Origin: a phage | Sequence record: PZ386972.1 | Length of the DNA stretch: 64,000 bases | Direction: 5' to 3' (one strand) | Shown here: positions 610-25,359 of the stretch, one piece after another | How the letters are laid out: the number at the start of each line of letters is the position of its first letter | Numbering within the stretch: position 1 is the first letter of the stretch | Program-made: the position numbers and the translations under genes | Notes under the pieces: generated by a model | The model's input: only the letters and a program-made list of their open reading frames with translations | Database searches by the model: none | What the model was told of the DNA's origin: nothing

Positions 610-3169
610 CGAGAATCCTTCTCACGTTATCCAAATCTTTACATACAGCAATAAACTTATCATCCTTGTATTTGCTATGATCTGGATGCTCTTTATCCAT
701 TGCAGCTAGTTTCTTATACTCGAACTCTGCATCAAGTAATACACCCTTGACATAACGAGTATATTCATCATCATCAATACAAGCGATTGATGGGTGCTGT
801 TTCTTCATCTTACCACAAGAGTAGTCACGAGAACCTCCAGCTTCAGAATCAGAATCAATACCAATCGGACAACCAGGAATACTGATACCACGGTCTTTCT
901 GAATATTACGAATCAGGATTTCATTGTATTGGTCGATCAAGTCTTCACGAACAATAGCAACTACGGAGTCATGAACCAGCATAACAATCTTCATCTCTTG
1001 TTCTAGGCCAAGAGAAATGATCTCATTATCTGCATCTACAGCACCTAAAAGGAGACTATCAGAAGAAGCAGACTGAATGATTGCGTTAAATCCAGAACGA
1101 ATTTCTTCACCCTGAACGCCACGGTCTTCGGAGTGGATATTATGCAGACGACGTTTACGACCAAAGTGACTATAGATAAATCCATGATTCTTGATCTGGT
1201 CGTGACACTTATCAATCCAACGCTTAAGCTGTGGGAACTGACCGAAGTAAGTTTCAATATAGTCCTTCGCATCCGCAACAGTACACTCTACAAACGGTTC
1301 ACCTGTCTTAGCAGCCTGTTCCAGAAGAGCTTCGTTAACAGAATGAGCTACTTTAGCTGGGCCAGAACCATACAGAATACCGAAGGTGATTGCTTTAGCT
1401 GCTTGACGCAGAGCTGGGAACAGCTTTTTAACATCACGTGGTTCGCATTGGAGTTTAAATACCATGTGTGCGATGTTAGAGTGGAAGTCCGGGTATTTAT
1501 CAGGTTCATTTCTCATGTTGATAAATACCTGTTGCATATTTCTATCACCAGATAGAACAGCAGCATAATAAACTTCCGCAGTTGTTAAGTCCCACGCGAT
1601 TACACGATACCCCGGAAGGGCTACTACACAACCCTTGATAATAGATTCATCACGAGGTAACTGCTGCAGGTTCAGTTTACCAGAAGAACTCAGACGACCA
1701 GAAGTAGTCATGTGTTCGTGGAAACCAGTACGAATGCAACCATCAGCATCAATGCTCAGAAGAATCTTCTCAACGTAAGTAGAGATCAGCTTAGTCAGCT
1801 TACGAATCTCTAGTAGAGTCTTAGCAATTGGATGCTGCGTAGACAATTCGTTCAGAGCTTCTGCATCTGTAGAGTCTGCTCCAGTATCCGTCAATTTACC
1901 TGTTGGAGTTAAGCCAACATAGTCAAACAGAAGAACACGGAGTTGTTTAACAGAGTTTGGGTTAAACGCTTCATTCTGATCTTTCTCTAGCTGAACGACT
2001 TCTGGATAAGTATACAGCTTTTCACGGGCTTTATTCAGATTATGGGTTAACTGGTACTGAGCTTCTTTTAAACGATCAATAGAAATAGGTACACCACGAT
2101 CCTCAACACGCTGGAGAAATACACAACCAGGCATTAGGACATCATAATACAGGCTGCAAAGTTTTTCATTCTTCTCAATTTTTGGTAAGAAGAAGTTGTG
2201 CAAACGTATGGTAGCATCTGTATCTTTCGCAGCGTAAGGCCACATAATATCAAACGGAATTAAATCATAGGTGAAATCTTCTTTCTTGATTTTATGTGCT
2301 TTGCAGTAGTCCTCTTTGAACTTATCTAGTTCGAAGTCATAGTCACCCATATCGGTGTACTTCATCGCTAGAGATTTCAAGCCATGAGTACCACGACGTT
2401 CATCTAGAACATAGTGCTGCAACATGGTATCATGGAGCCTGCGTTCTTTATGCGCTTTATCAAAAGTAAGTCCCAGATGGTACTTATAAAAGTGCATATC
2501 AAACTTCAAGTTGTGAAAAACAATAGTGTGGTTTTCACTATCCAGAATTTTCTGGAGATAATATACTGCAACCTCTGTGAGACAATCAGAATCGATATAT
2601 ACACCCTGATATTCTTGGTGAGACATAGAAACACCAAGCAGATAACCATCTCGACAGTATAGTGCTGAGGTTTCGGAGTCGAATGCGACAGGTCCGATAA
2701 CCATATTATACACCATCTTGATATATTCTTCTGCCTCATCAGGGTCAGTAATAGGACGGTAATCACCAGCTTTTGCAATCTTCTCACGACCATTGATAAT
2801 ATCGTGGATATTCTCTACTGTTGCATCAAAAACTGGTTTCATTTCAGGTTTAAAGTGTAACTGGGCTGGGCTGATACTCGCAATCCAGTTAGCATATCCA
2901 TTATATTCTACACGTTTACCGGTATAATCACCAATACCTTTCTTACCTGCAAAGTACAGGAAAGGTTCGGCACCTACCAGTATAACAAAATCATAATCAT
3001 TCGGATCAAATGGGTTTTCTGGTGTTCCAATAGTAATGTGCTTTTTAAGCAAACGACCAGATAACTTCTCGTTACACATATGAAATACATCAACTTCCTC
3101 GCCGTATAGCTGGAAATGTTTATCGTAACGAGTGTTATTTAGAGCTTTATCAACTACTGCGATTTTCAA
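602..3169 (-). CDS. DNA polymerase, family A, with 3'-5' exonuclease domain
   Basis: 855-aa ORF; exo motif DSETSALY; Pol I motif B KAITFGILYGSG; motif C LVHDSVV; upstream minus-strand promoter at 3231-3259. Confidence 0.9.
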   Translation of the reverse strand: MKIAVVDKALNNTRYDKHFQLYGEEVDVFHMCNEKLSGRLLKKHITIGTPENPFDPNDYDFVILVGAEPFLYFAGKKGIGDYTGKRVEYNGYANWIASISPAQLHFKPEMKPVFDATVENIHDIINGREKIAKAGDYRPITDPDEAEEYIKMVYNMVIGPVAFDSETSALYCRDGYLLGVSMSHQEYQGVYIDSDCLTEVAVYYLQKILDSENHTIVFHNLKFDMHFYKYHLGLTFDKAHKERRLHDTMLQHYVLDERRGTHGLKSLAMKYTDMGDYDFELDKFKEDYCKAHKIKKEDFTYDLIPFDIMWPYAAKDTDATIRLHNFFLPKIEKNEKLCSLYYDVLMPGCVFLQRVEDRGVPISIDRLKEAQYQLTHNLNKAREKLYTYPEVVQLEKDQNEAFNPNSVKQLRVLLFDYVGLTPTGKLTDTGADSTDAEALNELSTQHPIAKTLLEIRKLTKLISTYVEKILLSIDADGCIRTGFHEHMTTSGRLSSSGKLNLQQLPRDESIIKGCVVALPGYRVIAWDLTTAEVYYAAVLSGDRNMQQVFINMRNEPDKYPDFHSNIAHMVFKLQCEPRDVKKLFPALRQAAKAITFGILYGSGPAKVAHSVNEALLEQAAKTGEPFVECTVADAKDYIETYFGQFPQLKRWIDKCHDQIKNHGFIYSHFGRKRRLHNIHSEDRGVQGEEIRSGFNAIIQSASSDSLLLGAVDADNEIISLGLEQEMKIVMLVHDSVVAIVREDLIDQYNEILIRNIQKDRGISIPGCPIGIDSDSEAGGSRDYSCGKMKKQHPSIACIDDDEYTRYVKGVLLDAEFEYKKLAAMDKEHPDHSKYKDDKFIAVCKDLDNVRRILGA

Positions 3170-21165: not shown

Positions 21166-21307
21166 GCTAAAAAGCTAGACTGGTAATATACAGGGCCTGG
21201 GTATGAAAATACTCGGGCCTTTTCTATCAGAAAATTTTATTTGCCTAATGACCGATAATAAAGTAGAATATTCCTTAAATCCTGATAACTATAAAAAGGA
21301 AAGCCAA

Positions 21308-23638
21308 ATGAGCCATCGCATTGAAAAAGTAATTAAACGTGACGGTACTGTAGAAGACTTTGCTCCTGAAAAACTCAATGGTTGGGCAGAGTATGGTTGC
21401 AAAACAGTTGATGTAAGTTGGTCCGCCATTACTATGGCTGCTCAAAAAACGCTACCTAAAGGGGTTGTAGATTCCGACACTCTGATGGACGCATTAATTA
21501 AAGCTGCTGAAAGTCTTATCAAAGATAACCCAGCATACGATGTGCCAGCAAAGGAATTACGTCTTGCGCAAATGCGTAAACGCCTTTATGACTCTTTCGA
21601 ACCGCCTTCTCTACGCTTCTTCCATGACCACATGGTTAGCGTAGGTGCATGGGAAGACATGAGTGCATGGATTACCGATGAGCAATTTGAAGCTCTGAAT
21701 CAGGTTATCGACCATGATCGTGACCGTCTTTTTACTAGTGGTGGGCTGAAGCAGTTCTTTGATAAGTATTCCCGTCGTAACATAGCCACTGGTGAAATTT
21801 ACGAAACTCCGCAGTTTGCCTACATGGGTATGGCAATGGCGATGCTATCTCAACCTAACTGGACAATTCTAGATGCAATCGACCTCTACAACGCAATGTC
21901 ACTCCACAAAATCAACGTTCCTACGCCGCCACTGGTTGGTCTGCGCTCTAGTGACCGTGGATTTGCTAGTTGCTGCCTCGTGGATTCCACTGACACGTTG
22001 GATTCAATCGACACCGCCGAGCACATCGTCTTCAAAATGGTCGCAGCCAGAGCGGGAATCGGGTATCATCTTGAAAGCCGATCAATTGCTGATCCGGTGC
22101 GAAATGGGGCATTCCCGCATTCCGGAAAACTGCCATATTATCGACACATTGACCGCTCAGTAAAGGCCAATACTCAGCAAACTCGTGGTGGTTCTGCTAC
22201 AGTATCTTATCCATACTTCGACCCTGAAATCATTCAATTGATGCAGGTTAAGCAACAACGTGCTACAGATGAGAATAAAATCGATAAGATGGATTATTCT
22301 CTGAGCTTTAACAACCTTTTGTTAAAACGTTATCTTAAAAACGAAGATATTACGCTAATGTCATACTTCTATGCTCCAGAAGTTCATGAAGCGTTTTATA
22401 GTGATGACGAGGCTAAATTTGAAGAAATCTACGTGGCAGCGGAGAAACGTGTGGCATCTCTTACAAAGATCGACCACGAAGGAAAAACAGTTCCTGCAGC
22501 TCCTAAAGTCTCTGCAAAAGAAATCCTAGATACTTGGCTACGTATCCGAATGGAAACAGGACGTATGTATGCTCACCACATTGGAGAATCTAATCGTCAC
22601 GGTAACTTCCTTGATCCGATCCGTATGACAAACCTTTGTGTTGAAATTACTCAGCCTACACGCCCGTTCCATCACATTACAGAGCTGTACAAGACAAAAG
22701 AGCAGCTTGATCAAATGAAGCCGGAGGATATTGGTGAAGTATCTCTGTGTAACTTAGGTGGTGTTGTACTTGGACGCATGGAATCTCTGGCTGAGTGGGA
22801 AAAAACTTGCTACATCCTTCTGAAATTTGTTGACACAATTATTGAAATTCAGGATTATCCGTTCCCAACTATGGAATATACGGCTAAGAAACGTCGTAAT
22901 GTTGGTATTGGCCTGATGAACGCAGCGGGTGCAATGGCAGCAGAAGGTCTGGCTTACGAAGGTATTGAAGCCCGTAACTGGATTCACCGTGAGGCTGAAA
23001 AACTGTCTTACTTCCTGCATAAAGCCTCTGTACGCCTGGCTAAAGAACAGGGTGCATGTGAGTGGTTTGATCGTACTAAACCATCTAAAGGAATTCTAGT
23101 AATCGACACGTATAAGAAAACTGTTGATGAACTGGTATCCGTAGGTCTAGAAATGGATTGGGAGTCTCTACGTGCAGATATTCTGAAATATGGTATGCGT
23201 AACTCTGTTCTGACTGCTCAGATGCCGGGAGAAAGTTCTTCTGTTCTGCTAGGAGTTACTAACTCTATTGAACCGCCTCGTAAGATTGTATCTATCAAGG
23301 GTAGTGCAGTGAATAAAGTAATTGCAATTGCTCCGGGTGCAACCGATTGGGAAACGTTAATGAGCTATAAACTGGCTTATGATGTAGATCGTATCGAGTG
23401 GATCAAATGGGTAGCAACTATGCAAAAATTCTTCAGTCAGTCTATCAGTACGAATATGTACTATGACTACACCAAGTTTGAGAATGAAATCATTCCTGGC
23501 CCAGTAGTAGTTCGTGATTTCATGACTGCTGTTAAGTATGGGTGGAAAACTTTCTACTATGCAAACTTCAATACCGCAAATGGTGGAGGTGCTGGAGAAG
23601 AAGCAGCCGGTTGTGCATCCGGTGGTTGTACTATTTAA
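21308..23638 (+). CDS. nrdA: ribonucleotide reductase class Ia large subunit
   Basis: ATP-cone start MSHRIEKVIKRDGTVEDF; active site NLCVEI; C-terminal Cys pair; start moved from 21203 to ATG 21308 with RBS. Confidence 0.85.
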   Translation: MSHRIEKVIKRDGTVEDFAPEKLNGWAEYGCKTVDVSWSAITMAAQKTLPKGVVDSDTLMDALIKAAESLIKDNPAYDVPAKELRLAQMRKRLYDSFEPPSLRFFHDHMVSVGAWEDMSAWITDEQFEALNQVIDHDRDRLFTSGGLKQFFDKYSRRNIATGEIYETPQFAYMGMAMAMLSQPNWTILDAIDLYNAMSLHKINVPTPPLVGLRSSDRGFASCCLVDSTDTLDSIDTAEHIVFKMVAARAGIGYHLESRSIADPVRNGAFPHSGKLPYYRHIDRSVKANTQQTRGGSATVSYPYFDPEIIQLMQVKQQRATDENKIDKMDYSLSFNNLLLKRYLKNEDITLMSYFYAPEVHEAFYSDDEAKFEEIYVAAEKRVASLTKIDHEGKTVPAAPKVSAKEILDTWLRIRMETGRMYAHHIGESNRHGNFLDPIRMTNLCVEITQPTRPFHHITELYKTKEQLDQMKPEDIGEVSLCNLGGVVLGRMESLAEWEKTCYILLKFVDTIIEIQDYPFPTMEYTAKKRRNVGIGLMNAAGAMAAEGLAYEGIEARNWIHREAEKLSYFLHKASVRLAKEQGACEWFDRTKPSKGILVIDTYKKTVDELVSVGLEMDWESLRADILKYGMRNSVLTAQMPGESSSVLLGVTNSIEPPRKIVSIKGSAVNKVIAIAPGATDWETLMSYKLAYDVDRIEWIKWVATMQKFFSQSISTNMYYDYTKFENEIIPGPVVVRDFMTAVKYGWKTFYYANFNTANGGGAGEEAAGCASGGCTI

Positions 23639-23647
23639 TAAAAACAA

Positions 23648-23670
23648 GGAGATCTTCGGGTCTCCTTTTT
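23648..23670 (+). terminator. rho-independent terminator after nrdA
   Basis: Hairpin GGAGATCTTCGGGTCTCC followed by TTTTT. Confidence 0.6.
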
Positions 23671-23684
23671 CTTTGAAATTTTAC

Positions 23685-23713
23685 TTGCTAATCGCTACCA
23701 GATTTGCTATAAT
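23685..23713 (+). promoter_or_regulatory. early promoter (TTGCTA, 17 bp, TATAAT)
   Basis: -35 at 23685-23690, -10 at 23708-23713. Confidence 0.55.
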
Positions 23714-23719
23714 ATTTAT

Positions 23720-24217
23720 ATGAAATTAACACAGAGTAGATTAAAAGAGCTAATCTCCTATGATCCTGAAACTGGTGAATTTACCTGGCTTCCAAGAAAA
23801 AATTTAGCAAAGCATTTATGGAACGCTAAAGCAGGAACCTACGATAAGCTAGGGTATCTTCGTATAAAAGTGGAAGGAGTTCAATACTTAGCTCATCGCC
23901 TAGCCTTCTTGTATATGACTGGAGAAATACCAGAAGGAAAAATTGACCATAAAGATACTAATCCGTCCAATTGTGCCTGGAATAATCTACGTGAAGCCAC
24001 GAGTTCCCAAAATTCTATGAACTCATGCGCAAGAGTGGATAACCAGCTTGGAATGAAAAATATTCGTGTAAAAGGCAATTCATTTCAGGTTAGGATAGGC
24101 AAAGACGGTAAATCTTATACAAAAACTTTAAAAACCATAGAAGAAGCTATAGAGTGGAGAGATACCAAACTACTAGAACTTCATGGGGACTTTGCAAACA
24201 ACGGAGAAGCTAAATGA
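23720..24217 (+). CDS. HNH homing-endonuclease-like protein
   Basis: 165 aa; HRLAFLYMTGE...IDHKDTNPSNCAWNNLREATSSQN matches the HNH signature; inserted between nrdA and nrdB. Confidence 0.7.
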   Translation: MKLTQSRLKELISYDPETGEFTWLPRKNLAKHLWNAKAGTYDKLGYLRIKVEGVQYLAHRLAFLYMTGEIPEGKIDHKDTNPSNCAWNNLREATSSQNSMNSCARVDNQLGMKNIRVKGNSFQVRIGKDGKSYTKTLKTIEEAIEWRDTKLLELHGDFANNGEAK

Positions 24218-25359
24218 CTACTTTACTTAACTTAGAATGGGATCATACTAACGCTGATCTTTTCCTCGGTGATTCTTTGGGTATCGCAGATTATGTGCGT
24301 GTGGCACATCCCGAACTGGAGCGATTAGCTCTGTTGCAGCGTTCCCAATTCTGGACTGAAACTGAAATTAGTCTTGAAGCTGATAAAAAGCAGTGGGGTA
24401 ATCTCCCGCGTGAAATTCAGGAAATTACACTCCTGAACTTAGCATGGCAAACTCAAACTGATTCCTTTATCAGTCGTGCCCCTGAAGCAGCTATTATGCC
24501 GCTTGTAAGTCGTCCAGAATTGGAAGGTATGCTCAAGCAGTGGAGCTACTTCGAAGATCTGCATAGCCGTGCATATAGTAATATTATTCGTAATGTGCTG
24601 ACTGATCCAGCAGAATTTATTGATTCTGTAACCAAAAACCAGGAAGCATTCGCACGCATCGCTGATTCTGTTGAACTATTCGATGAACTGTATCAGTTAG
24701 GTCAGTATTTCATCGCAGTACGCGATCATCGTGGTGACAATACATATCCAGAAACTGAGTTCCCTGAAGTTAAACGTGAAACTCAGGCTAAACTATTAGA
24801 CGCTTACTTTGCGATCTATGGTCTGGAAGCAATGCAGTTTTACGCATCCTTTGCATGTACCTTTGCATTAGCAGAGAACGATATTCTGCAAGGTATTGCT
24901 AAAAATCTGCAATTAATCGCTAAAGATGAAGCTCTGCACACTCAGATGTCCAAAGCAATCATCCAGATTATGTTCCAGCAGTTTGACAAAGATCTGGTGA
25001 ATGAAGCAGTGGCTAAAGCACCAGCACAGCTCCTGAAAACTCTGAAAACTGAAATTGAATGGGGTCATTTCATTTTCAAAGGTCGTAGTCTGATTGGCTT
25101 GAATGCAGAACTTCTAGAAGAATATCTGTACTTTGTGGGGCGTAATGCATTTATGCACATCGGTGTAGAATGGCCTAGTCATTTACCAGTAATCACCAAG
25201 AACCCCATTCCGTGGATCATGAACTGGCTGGATACCACTTCTTTACAGCCTGCTCCACAAGAAATCCAGATTGGTGCAGCATATCGTGTAGGTCAGGTAA
25301 CTGAGACCTCTACTGATACTCTGAAAGATCTGGGTAATGAATTTGGAGATTTCTTATGA
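24214..25359 (+). CDS. nrdB: ribonucleotide reductase class Ia small subunit
   Basis: 381 aa; ferritin-like fold with iron-ligand EALHT motif; overlaps upstream and downstream stops. Confidence 0.8.
   Translation: MTTLLNLEWDHTNADLFLGDSLGIADYVRVAHPELERLALLQRSQFWTETEISLEADKKQWGNLPREIQEITLLNLAWQTQTDSFISRAPEAAIMPLVSRPELEGMLKQWSYFEDLHSRAYSNIIRNVLTDPAEFIDSVTKNQEAFARIADSVELFDELYQLGQYFIAVRDHRGDNTYPETEFPEVKRETQAKLLDAYFAIYGLEAMQFYASFACTFALAENDILQGIAKNLQLIAKDEALHTQMSKAIIQIMFQQFDKDLVNEAVAKAPAQLLKTLKTEIEWGHFIFKGRSLIGLNAELLEEYLYFVGRNAFMHIGVEWPSHLPVITKNPIPWIMNWLDTTSLQPAPQEIQIGAAYRVGQVTETSTDTLKDLGNEFGDFL

What the first reader, a model, noticed from the sequence alone, without database searches (positions are those of the whole stretch)
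23720..24217. Free-standing HNH endonuclease inserted between nrdA and nrdB with its own promoter
The 165-aa HNH ORF interrupts the RNR operon, preceded by a terminator (23648-23670) and a promoter (23685-23713). This is the classic position for homing endonucleases and a candidate mobile element targeting nrd genes of related phages.
Basis: partly seen in the sequence, partly recalled or inferred. Interest (0 to 1): 0.4.

Follow-up and report, generated by a model that had tools for sequence, protein, structure and literature searches.

The report
Homing endonuclease gene riding nrdB promoter
This is an ordinary, already annotated selfish nuclease gene lodged between the two ribonucleotide reductase genes of a T5-like phage; it has no promoter of its own, because it sits behind the resident nrdB promoter, and it is always inherited with the first ~185 bases of nrdB.

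Summary
The ORF (23720-24217, 165 aa), the terminator and the promoter are all real. The window is a T5-like phage (Tequintavirus). The protein has an I-HmuI-like HNH nuclease domain followed by an AP2-type DNA-binding domain. Near-identical genes (90-98% nt) are annotated as HNH homing endonucleases in 29 phage records. The AKFV33 paper (2012) already discussed the gene as a mobE-like insert between nrdA and nrdB.

About 299 of 447 related records have an empty site. At least four other diverged HNH-AP2 genes occupy the same spacer in other records.

The "own promoter" claim is wrong. Empty alleles carry the identical terminator and promoter, so this is the resident nrdB promoter.

New details:
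- The insert replaces the nrdB leader. Its ATG lies 6 nt after the -10, so the mRNA is probably leaderless. A 78%-identical Klebsiella-phage relative has the same layout.
- The 3' end of the ORF supplies nrdB's Shine-Dalgarno sequence.
- All 29 carriers, and no other record, share a distinct, mostly synonymous version of nrdB nt 1-185. This is a co-conversion or immunity tract and places the likely target in the nrdB 5' end, as for the unrelated T4 MobE.

Verdict: a known kind of element, of low to moderate interest.

The parts
21203..23638 (+). nrdA, the class Ia ribonucleotide reductase large subunit. It is the left neighbour and is not part of the mobile unit.
   Evidence: Pfam Ribonuc_red_lgC, E=2e-119. 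There are no fixed differences between insert-bearing and empty alleles in its last ~900 nt.
23646..23677 (+). Intrinsic terminator after nrdA: a 9-bp stem, a UUCG loop and a U-rich tail. It is resident, because empty alleles have it too.
   Evidence: -12.5 kcal/mol. It is identical in empty alleles and in all insert types.
23685..23713 (+). Resident nrdB early promoter: -35 TTGCTA at 23685-23690, a 17-nt spacer, an extended -10 TG at 23705-23706, and -10 TATAAT at 23708-23713. The endonuclease gene has captured it rather than brought it in.
   Evidence: The same 29 nt occur in the empty allele L001 and in alleles of types B, C and D. It fits the T5 early-promoter pattern seen more than 20 times in the window.
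23716..23719 (+). Left junction of the cassette. Insert-bearing and empty alleles start to diverge 2-3 nt after the -10 hexamer.
23720..23720 (+). Predicted transcription start. It is the A of the HNH ATG and the 7th nt after the -10, so the mRNA would be leaderless. This is an inference, not a measurement.
   Evidence: T5 N25 (TATAAT-AGATTC-ATAAATTT) is primed with ApU, so its +1 is the 7th nt after the -10 (10.1101/042432). The type A sequence TATAAT-ATTTAT-ATGAAATT mirrors the canonical TATAAT-ATTTAT-ATAAATT. There is no Shine-Dalgarno sequence upstream. The same layout occurs in Klebsiella phage Sugarland.
23720..24217 (+). HNH-AP2 homing endonuclease gene ('type A'), 165 aa. The I-HmuI-like HNH nuclease domain spans about aa 1-105 (Pfam HNH_3 at aa 56-100, nt 23885-24019). 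The AP2-type DNA-binding domain spans about aa 107-160 (nt 24038-24199).
24203..24206 (+). Shine-Dalgarno GGAG for nrdB, encoded inside the last codons of the HNH ORF (…NNGEAK). It replaces the SD that was lost with the original leader.
   Evidence: Cassette types A-D and the Sugarland relative all end with GGAGAA 5-7 nt before the nrdB ATG.
24214..24398 (+). The first ~185 nt of nrdB: a cassette-linked tract (co-conversion or presumed immunity tract) that is always inherited with the type A HNH gene.
   Evidence: There are 22 fixed differences between type A and empty alleles at nrdB nt 15-185 and none at nt 186-1100. Net divergence is 0.10-0.21 in this tract and about 0 beyond nt 200. In the database, exactly 29 records have this tract at 96.8% identity or more, all of them HNH carriers, and the next best is 87.4%.
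24324..24345 (+). Candidate target region in sensitive alleles (inferred). It holds the densest cluster of fixed differences between type A and empty alleles (7 in 22 nt, nrdB nt 111-132). It is homologous to the region where T4 MobE nicks T2 nrdB.
   Evidence: PMC2790892.
24214..25359 (+). nrdB, the class Ia ribonucleotide reductase small subunit. It is the second cistron of the promoter-HNH-nrdB unit.
   Evidence: Pfam Ribonuc_red_sm, E=5e-36.

Best explanation
The ORF is a free-standing homing endonuclease gene. Its protein combines an I-HmuI-like HNH nuclease domain with an AP2-type DNA-binding domain. It sits in the nrdA-nrdB spacer of a T5-like phage.

Shown here:
- The gene did not bring a promoter. 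It replaced the ~31-nt nrdB leader immediately downstream of the resident early nrdB promoter, so HNH and nrdB now form one promoter-proximal bicistron.
- The 3' end of the ORF provides nrdB's ribosome-binding site, and its stop codon overlaps the nrdB start codon.
- The gene is absent from most relatives and present on diverged genomic backgrounds.
- It is under purifying selection.
- It is in complete linkage with a distinct, mostly synonymous version of the first ~185 nt of nrdB.

Inferred:
- In a mixed infection, the enzyme nicks or cuts the HNH-less nrdB allele within its first ~190 nt. The most likely position is around nt 105-135.
- Recombinational repair from the HNH-bearing genome then copies the HNH gene together with the adjacent nrdB 5' segment. 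The silent substitutions in that segment would make the carrier immune.
- Transcription from the captured promoter starts at the A of the HNH ATG. The endonuclease would then be translated from a leaderless mRNA, probably at a low level, while nrdB keeps a normal Shine-Dalgarno sequence.
For: Identity of the protein:
- Pfam HNH_3, E=4.4e-16, and PHROG 99, E=6.6e-60.
- The family profile hits I-HmuI (7.5e-7) and plant AP2 domains (WRI1, 2e-8) among solved structures.
- 26 of 50 full-length homologues hit Pfam AP2.
- The motif residues D76, H77, N89, N98 and N101 are conserved.

Presence and absence:
- 447 phage records hold this nrdA-nrdB region.
- 299 have the empty leader and 29 have this gene at 90% nt identity or more.
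- 75 have the T5 hegH type, 34 a third type, and 43 a fourth type upstream of the promoter.

Resident promoter: the terminator and promoter are identical in empty and occupied alleles.

Mobility signature:
- Carriers include both Tequintavirus and Epseptimavirus genomes. Their flanks are 89-98% identical to the window, while the HNH gene is 90-95% identical irrespective of flank divergence.
- There are 22 fixed differences between carrier and empty alleles in nrdB nt 15-185 and none in nt 186-1100. Within-carrier diversity is 0.7-1.8% in nt 1-150 and 7-12% downstream. Only 2 amino-acid changes result.
- Linkage is perfect in the whole database: 29 of 29 carriers have the tract, and the next-best tract is 87.4% identical.
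- There is no association on the nrdA side.
- The allele classes (types A-D and the empty allele) are only 72-84% identical to each other in nrdB nt 1-190, but 92-98% identical in nt 191-850, apart from the type B/type C Epseptimavirus pair at 89.5%.

Functional constraint: 11 of 11 alleles are intact at 165 aa. The window differs from the carrier consensus at 15 synonymous and 6 non-synonymous codons.

Leaderless start:
- The ATG lies 6 nt after the -10 in all 11 carriers, and also in the 78%-identical Sugarland homologue, although its promoter sequence differs.
- The other early promoters in the window that precede an ORF put the start codon 25-40 nt downstream behind an SD, with a few at other distances.
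- The T5 N25 start site is the 7th nt after the -10.

Precedent: T4 MobE lies between nrdA and nrdB and nicks T2 nrdB at nt 122-126. Its recombination point falls within the first 189 nt (PMC2790892).
Against: - No nuclease activity, target site or transcription start site has been measured for this protein or for any of its relatives at this locus. The 'F-TflVIII nicking' label for the T5-type gene appears only in GenBank annotation, and no paper was found that supports it.
- The linked nrdB tract could simply be part of the DNA segment first imported from a diverged donor, and need not confer immunity.
- No donor lineage for the tract was identified. Sugarland nrdB is equally distant (64%) from the carrier and the empty tracts.
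- Pfam AP2 does not hit the window protein itself, even at E<=10. Foldseek against the PDB gave nothing significant.
- Leaderless translation is inferred only by analogy with N25. Read-through of the nrdA terminator could also supply mRNA with an AU-rich, SD-less leader.
Confidence: 0.8

Rival explanations
1. One reading: an autonomous mobile cassette that carries its own promoter (and terminator) into the RNR operon.
For: A strong promoter match and a terminator lie directly upstream of the ORF. The AKFV33 record annotates the same promoter and terminator beside its orthologue.
Against: The same terminator and promoter are present, base for base, in empty alleles, where they directly precede nrdB. 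They are also present in alleles carrying four different HNH genes. Carrier and empty alleles only begin to differ 2-3 nt after the -10 hexamer.
Confidence: 0.03
2. A passive passenger. The nuclease is no longer active as a homing enzyme. The gene and the linked nrdB 5' tract are a segment introgressed once from a diverged T5-like phage, and they spread only by ordinary homologous recombination and hitch-hiking.
For: No activity data exist. Homing endonuclease genes commonly decay after fixation. The gene is rare (29 of 447 records). ABTNLsp4 carries L90P in the conserved NLR motif.
Against: All 11 alleles examined are intact, and substitutions are mostly synonymous. The catalytic residues are conserved. 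Linkage is complete for ~185 nt on the nrdB side but nil on the nrdA side, and it holds across two genera. Neutral recombination should have eroded such linkage on both sides. The nrdB tract (96.8-99.5% identical) is more uniform among carriers than the backgrounds it sits in.
Confidence: 0.12
3. A domesticated function rather than selfish homing. Candidates are a regulator of nrdB expression through its AP2 DNA-binding domain, an exclusion weapon against co-infecting phages, or a DNA-processing enzyme (for example one making T5's genomic nicks, or a terminase-associated HNH).
For: The gene is co-transcribed and possibly translationally coupled with nrdB (ATGA overlap). AP2 domains act as transcription factors elsewhere. 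T5-type relatives are labelled nickases in annotation.
Against: Two thirds of related phages do without any gene at this site, so no core function is plausible. The gene lies in the early nucleotide-metabolism block and not next to a terminase. Interchangeable diverged alleles at one site, each with its own nrdB tract, are the pattern expected of competing homing elements. Exclusion of competitors is not really distinct from homing, because it is a by-product of it.
Confidence: 0.05

Closest known systems
AKFV33 ORF96 / SPC35 gp87 ('putative H-N-H-endonuclease P-TflVIII') and the other 27 type A records
   Same: These are orthologues, 90-98% nt and about 96% aa identical. They sit at the same position, have the same 500-nt distance from the -10 to the nrdB ATG, and carry the same linked nrdB tract. 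The AKFV33 gene was described in PMC3326045 as lying between nrdA and nrdB and as possibly mobE-like.
   Different: Nothing of substance differs. The window allele has 6 private amino-acid differences and a T instead of a C at 23716. None of these genes has been tested experimentally.
T5 hegH (P-TflVIII, labelled F-TflVIII 'nicking homing endonuclease' in DT57C and DT571/2)
   Same: It belongs to the same HNH-AP2 family, sits at the same insertion point behind the same promoter, and also supplies a GGAGAA SD for nrdB.
   Different: It is only 42% identical at the protein level. It has its own ~27-nt leader with an AAGGAG SD and a TTG start, so it is not leaderless. It is linked to a different nrdB 5' tract.
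T4 MobE (free-standing HNH homing endonuclease between nrdA and nrdB)
   Same: It occupies the same intergenic position. It depends on outside transcription signals rather than on a promoter of its own. It nicks the nrdB 5' region of the naive phage (T2 nt 122-126), with the recombination point in the first 189 nt (PMC2790892). Here the linked tract spans nrdB nt 15-185, and the densest differences fall at nt 111-132, in the homologous part of NrdB.
   Different: There is no detectable sequence relationship (BLASTP E=41; hhalign probability 0.2%). MobE has no AP2 domain. MobE is transcribed by read-through from nrdA, whereas this gene lies directly behind a promoter. The phage family is also different.
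I-HmuI (SPO1 intron-encoded HNH nicking endonuclease, PDB 1U3E)
   Different: I-HmuI is intron-encoded and has a different C-terminal DNA-binding region instead of an AP2 domain. This gene is free-standing.

Membership tests
HNH (ββα-Me) endonucleases, HNH_3 / I-HmuI-like | HNH motif with the catalytic His and the conserved Asn residues | tested here: met
   Pfam HNH_3, E=4.4e-16, over the full model 1-46. D76, H77, N98 and N101 are invariant and N89 is conserved in at least 90% of 50 homologues. They align with the I-HmuI motif.
HNH (ββα-Me) endonucleases, HNH_3 / I-HmuI-like | Fold similar to a solved HNH homing endonuclease | tested here: met
HNH (ββα-Me) endonucleases, HNH_3 / I-HmuI-like | Metal-dependent DNA nicking or cleavage activity | not testable with these tools
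   This needs purified protein or in vivo nick mapping.
AP2 DNA-binding domain (HNH-AP2 homing endonucleases) | C-terminal domain of three β-strands plus a helix, homologous to AP2/ERF | tested here: met
Free-standing homing endonuclease genes of phages | Presence/absence polymorphism at the same locus among close relatives | tested here: met
   There are 29 carriers and 299 records with an empty leader among 447 records. Empty alleles are as close to the window in the flanks as carriers are.
Free-standing homing endonuclease genes of phages | Intergenic insertion next to a conserved essential gene, with no intron or intein | tested here: met
   The gene lies between the nrdA stop and the nrdB start and leaves both reading frames intact.
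Free-standing homing endonuclease genes of phages | Flanking markers co-inherited with the gene (a co-conversion tract that includes the target site) | tested here: met
   There are 22 fixed differences in nrdB nt 15-185 and none beyond. Linkage is 29 of 29 across the database.
Free-standing homing endonuclease genes of phages | The enzyme cleaves the allele lacking the gene but not its own allele | not testable with these tools
   This needs a cleavage assay on the empty-type and carrier-type nrdB 5' fragments.
Free-standing homing endonuclease genes of phages | Nuclease-dependent over-transmission in mixed infection | not testable with these tools
   This needs phage crosses.
T4 mob (MobE) family | Sequence homology to MobE | tested here: not met
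   BLASTP E=41 and hhalign probability 0.2%. The resemblance is one of position and likely target only.
Leaderless mRNAs | Transcription start coincides with the A of the start codon | tested here: inconclusive
   The geometry fits: the ATG begins at the 7th nt after the -10, there is no SD, and the layout is conserved in 11 carriers and in Sugarland. The N25 analogy also fits. No start-site data exist.

The most novel reading that the evidence does not exclude
The endonuclease gene is expressed as a truly leaderless message. Its start codon was created at the +1 position of the captured nrdB early promoter (canonical ATAAATT became ATGAAATT). This layout is conserved in a 78%-identical Klebsiella-phage relative, which suggests it is a selected way of keeping nuclease levels low without disturbing nrdB. 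In addition, this HNH-AP2 enzyme would hit the same short stretch of nrdB (around codons 37-44) as the unrelated T4 MobE. That would make this nrdB motif a convergent target for homing endonucleases across phage families. At least five mutually diverged nuclease/target-tract allele pairs would then be competing for one site in T5-like phages.
Probability: 0.3. Interest if true: 0.45.

Novelty: already known. Interest (0 to 1): 0.28.

Why it matters
The element itself is a textbook selfish gene. It is already annotated, and it was discussed in 2012 for AKFV33. Its value is as a clean natural example.

- Hundreds of sequenced T5-like phages show an empty site, at least five interchangeable HNH-AP2 genes, and a sharply bounded, mostly silent nrdB tract linked to each. 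This predicts where each enzyme cuts and which substitutions confer immunity.
- The data give a ready-made system for studying competition between homing elements and recombination boundaries in therapeutic T5-like phages.
- The probable leaderless start offers a simple, testable case of how such genes are kept at low expression.

For annotation, the practical lesson is that the promoter upstream belongs to nrdB.

Tried and rejected
- Paralogues in the window: BLASTP of the HNH protein against all six-frame ORFs of at least 60 aa found none.
- An isogenic carrier/empty pair: Kenya-K15 (carrier) and Kenya-K16 (empty) are about 3% diverged and mosaic throughout, so they are not isogenic and do not define a conversion tract on their own. 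A population comparison of 11 carriers and 16 empties replaced this.
- IMG/VR: the scan added only three T5-like carriers. The other loci were distant homologues, mostly 31-52% identical, in unrelated contigs, and were not used for context.
- Pfam on the isolated N- and C-terminal pieces gave only noise.
- Donor of the nrdB tract: Sugarland-like Klebsiella phages were rejected, because they are 64% identical to both the carrier and the empty tracts.
- Homology to T4 MobE was rejected.
- Literature on F-TflVIII activity or on a mapped start site for this promoter: nothing was found.
- The terminator-like hairpin at 24252-24271 inside nrdB was considered as an internal attenuator, as in T4 mobE. 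It is weak (6 pairs, poor U-tract) and was not pursued.

Full report
**Observation.** The window is a T5-like phage genome. Over 24 kb, its best matches in the phage collection are Tequintavirus genomes at about 95-97.5% identity, and none is identical. The ORF at 23720-24217 (+) exists as described, with 165 codons. It matches Pfam HNH_3 at E=4.4e-16 and PHROG 99 'HNH endonuclease' at E=6.6e-60.

It lies between nrdA (21203-23638) and nrdB (24214-25359). Its TGA stop overlaps the nrdB ATG. The hairpin at 23646-23667 is followed by a U-tract and folds at -12.5 kcal/mol. The promoter TTGCTA-17-TGcTATAAT at 23685-23713 is also present.

**What the protein is.** The closest solved structure by sequence is the nicking homing endonuclease I-HmuI (E=1e-3 for the protein alone, 7.5e-7 for a 50-sequence family profile). 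The same profile matches plant AP2/ERF DNA-binding domains through its C-terminal third (WRI1, 2e-8). Of 50 full-length homologues, 26 hit Pfam AP2 individually, although the window protein does not.

**It is already annotated and discussed.** Twenty-nine phage records carry this gene at 90-98% nt identity. They label it 'HNH homing endonuclease' or 'putative H-N-H-endonuclease P-TflVIII'. Niu et al. 2012 (PMC3326045) described the AKFV33 orthologue ORF96 as lying between nrdA and nrdB, as 42% identical to T5's P-TflVIII, and as possibly analogous to T4 mobE. I reproduce the 42% figure.

**The promoter is not its own.** I aligned the nrdA-nrdB junction of the window with an insert-free relative (Lindwurm) and with other relatives. 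The terminator and the whole promoter are identical in all of them. The sequences diverge only 2-3 nt after the -10 hexamer.

In empty alleles the promoter is followed by a 31-nt leader, ATTCCTGAAATAGTGAGAAAGAGGAAAATCA, and then the nrdB ATG. This is the standard T5 early layout, seen more than 20 times in the window. The endonuclease gene has replaced that leader.

The last codons of the ORF (…AAC GGA GAA GCT AAA TGA) supply a GGAG 7 nt before the nrdB ATG. Cassette types A-D and the Sugarland relative all end the same way.

**The site is a hot spot with interchangeable occupants.** The 447 records that hold this region break down as follows:
- 299 have the empty leader.
- 29 carry the window's gene, here called type A.
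- 75 carry the T5 hegH type, type D.
- 34 carry a third type, C.
- 3 carry a phiLLS type, B, and 4 Klebsiella phages carry a 78%-identical relative.
- 43 of the 'empty leader' records carry yet another HNH-AP2 gene upstream of the promoter, the EPS7 type.

The proteins of these types are 31-78% identical to each other.

**Evidence for mobility.** Type A occurs in both Tequintavirus and Epseptimavirus genomes. Identity of the flanks to the window ranges from 89 to 98%. The HNH gene stays at 90-95% identical regardless of flank divergence, and empty alleles are as close to the window in the flanks as carriers are.

I compared 11 carriers with 16 empty alleles. There are 22 fixed differences in nrdB nt 15-185 and none in nt 186-1100. 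Net divergence between the two groups is 0.10-0.21 in the first 200 nt and about 0.00 beyond. Carriers are nearly identical to one another in nt 1-150 (0.7-1.8% diversity) but 7-12% diverged further downstream. Only two amino acids differ (N8E, P62G).

On the nrdA side there is no association at all. In the whole collection, exactly 29 records have this nrdB tract at 96.8% identity or more. All are carriers, and the next-best tract is 87.4% identical.

Type C shows the same behaviour, with a tract extending to about nt 231-237. The allele classes (types A-D and the empty allele) are only 72-84% identical to each other in nrdB nt 1-190. In nt 191-850 they are 92-98% identical, apart from the type B/type C Epseptimavirus pair at 89.5%.

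All 11 type A ORFs are intact. Fifteen codons with synonymous differences and six with non-synonymous ones separate the window from the carrier consensus.

This is the expected footprint of a homing endonuclease whose target lies in the nrdB 5' end and whose carrier allele is immune. Neither activity nor immunity has been shown.

**Parallel with T4.** MobE sits between nrdA and nrdB. It lacks its own promoter. It nicks T2 nrdB at nt 122-126, and the recombination point falls within the first 189 nt (PMC2790892).

MobE is not detectably related to the protein studied here. Even so, the densest cluster of carrier-versus-empty differences (7 in nt 111-132) falls in the homologous part of NrdB, just upstream of the conserved FW motif. 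I take this as a lead for where the enzyme cuts, not as a result.

**Expression.** The ATG at 23720 is the first in-frame start codon in the open frame. It has no Shine-Dalgarno sequence. It begins at the 7th nt after the -10 hexamer.

T5 N25, whose orthologue lies in this window at 11363-11335 (-), has TATAAT-AGATTC-ATAAATTT and is primed with ApU. Its +1 is therefore the 7th nt after the -10 (10.1101/042432). Type A reads TATAAT-ATTTAT-ATGAAATT, which is the canonical initial transcribed sequence ATAAATT with one extra G. The predicted transcript would therefore start with AUG.

The spacing is the same in all 11 carriers. It is also the same in the Sugarland homologue, although that promoter differs in sequence. 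Types B, C and D instead have 20-27-nt leaders with a strong SD and TTG or GTG starts.

Leaderless translation, probably inefficient, is my preferred reading, at about 0.5. The alternative is translation from terminator read-through RNA with an AU-rich, SD-less leader.

**Verdict.** The finding is real and its mobility interpretation holds. The 'own promoter' part is wrong, and the element is a known, annotated kind. The linked nrdB tract, the promoter capture and the probable leaderless start are useful refinements rather than surprises.

Noticed in passing
L007 (EPS7) 1020-1502; also L082, L084, L096: A different HNH-AP2 gene (160 aa, 41% identical to the window's) is inserted upstream of the nrdB promoter, between nrdA and the promoter. 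The nrdA terminator motif found in the other alleles is missing there. It is present in 43 phage records. The same 75-nt spacer therefore has two insertion points.
   Followed up: partly
window, both strands (for example 26768, 27600, 31593, 43522, 45856, 53342 on +; 11363, 9106, 7659 on -): More than 20 copies of the T5 early-promoter module occur in the window: TTGCTW-N17-TATAAT, then ATTTAT or ATATTC, then ATAAATTGATGAGAGG, with the ATG mostly 25-40 nt downstream. The copy at 11363-11335 (-) is the orthologue of the classic N25 promoter.
   Followed up: partly
window 23716: The window has T here, giving the ATATT discriminator seen in empty alleles and reported for T5 early promoters (PMC7472727). 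The 10 other type A alleles have C. This is either a point change or a slightly different left crossover.
   Followed up: no
PRF-SP13, PRF-SP12, STP-SP9, CRW-SP5 and CRW-SP6 records: These Salmonella phages have an nrdB 5' tract that is 87.4% identical to the type A tract. This is intermediate between carriers (96.8% or more) and all other records (85% or less). They may be partial recombinants or another allele class.
   Followed up: no
L104 (ABTNLsp4), HNH residue 90: This carrier has L90P in the conserved N-L-R part of the HNH motif. It may be an inactivated copy.
   Followed up: no
L005 (DT571/2) 923-1153 (-) and 942-1457 (+); DT57C: These records label the T5-type gene 'nicking homing endonuclease F-TflVIII' and also keep an overlapping antisense CDS called P-TflVIII. 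No paper describing F-TflVIII activity was found in the library.
   Followed up: partly
L007 (EPS7 RefSeq) 210-1020: nrdA is annotated as only 410 aa, and about 800 nt before the HNH gene are left unannotated. Part of that stretch aligns with the nrdA 3' end of other phages, so a frameshift or an annotation problem is likely.
   Followed up: no
L008 (rokbiter) 1797-2459: The type C gene is annotated as 220 aa, starting from a GTG inside the end of nrdA and reading through the terminator and promoter. The SE19 and ZJUN2 records start it at the GTG behind the AAGGAG SD (172 aa), which is the more plausible start.
   Followed up: no
window 24252-24271: A weak terminator-like hairpin (6 pairs) lies inside the type A-specific nrdB tract. 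The sequence differs in empty alleles. It is probably a chance match.
   Followed up: no
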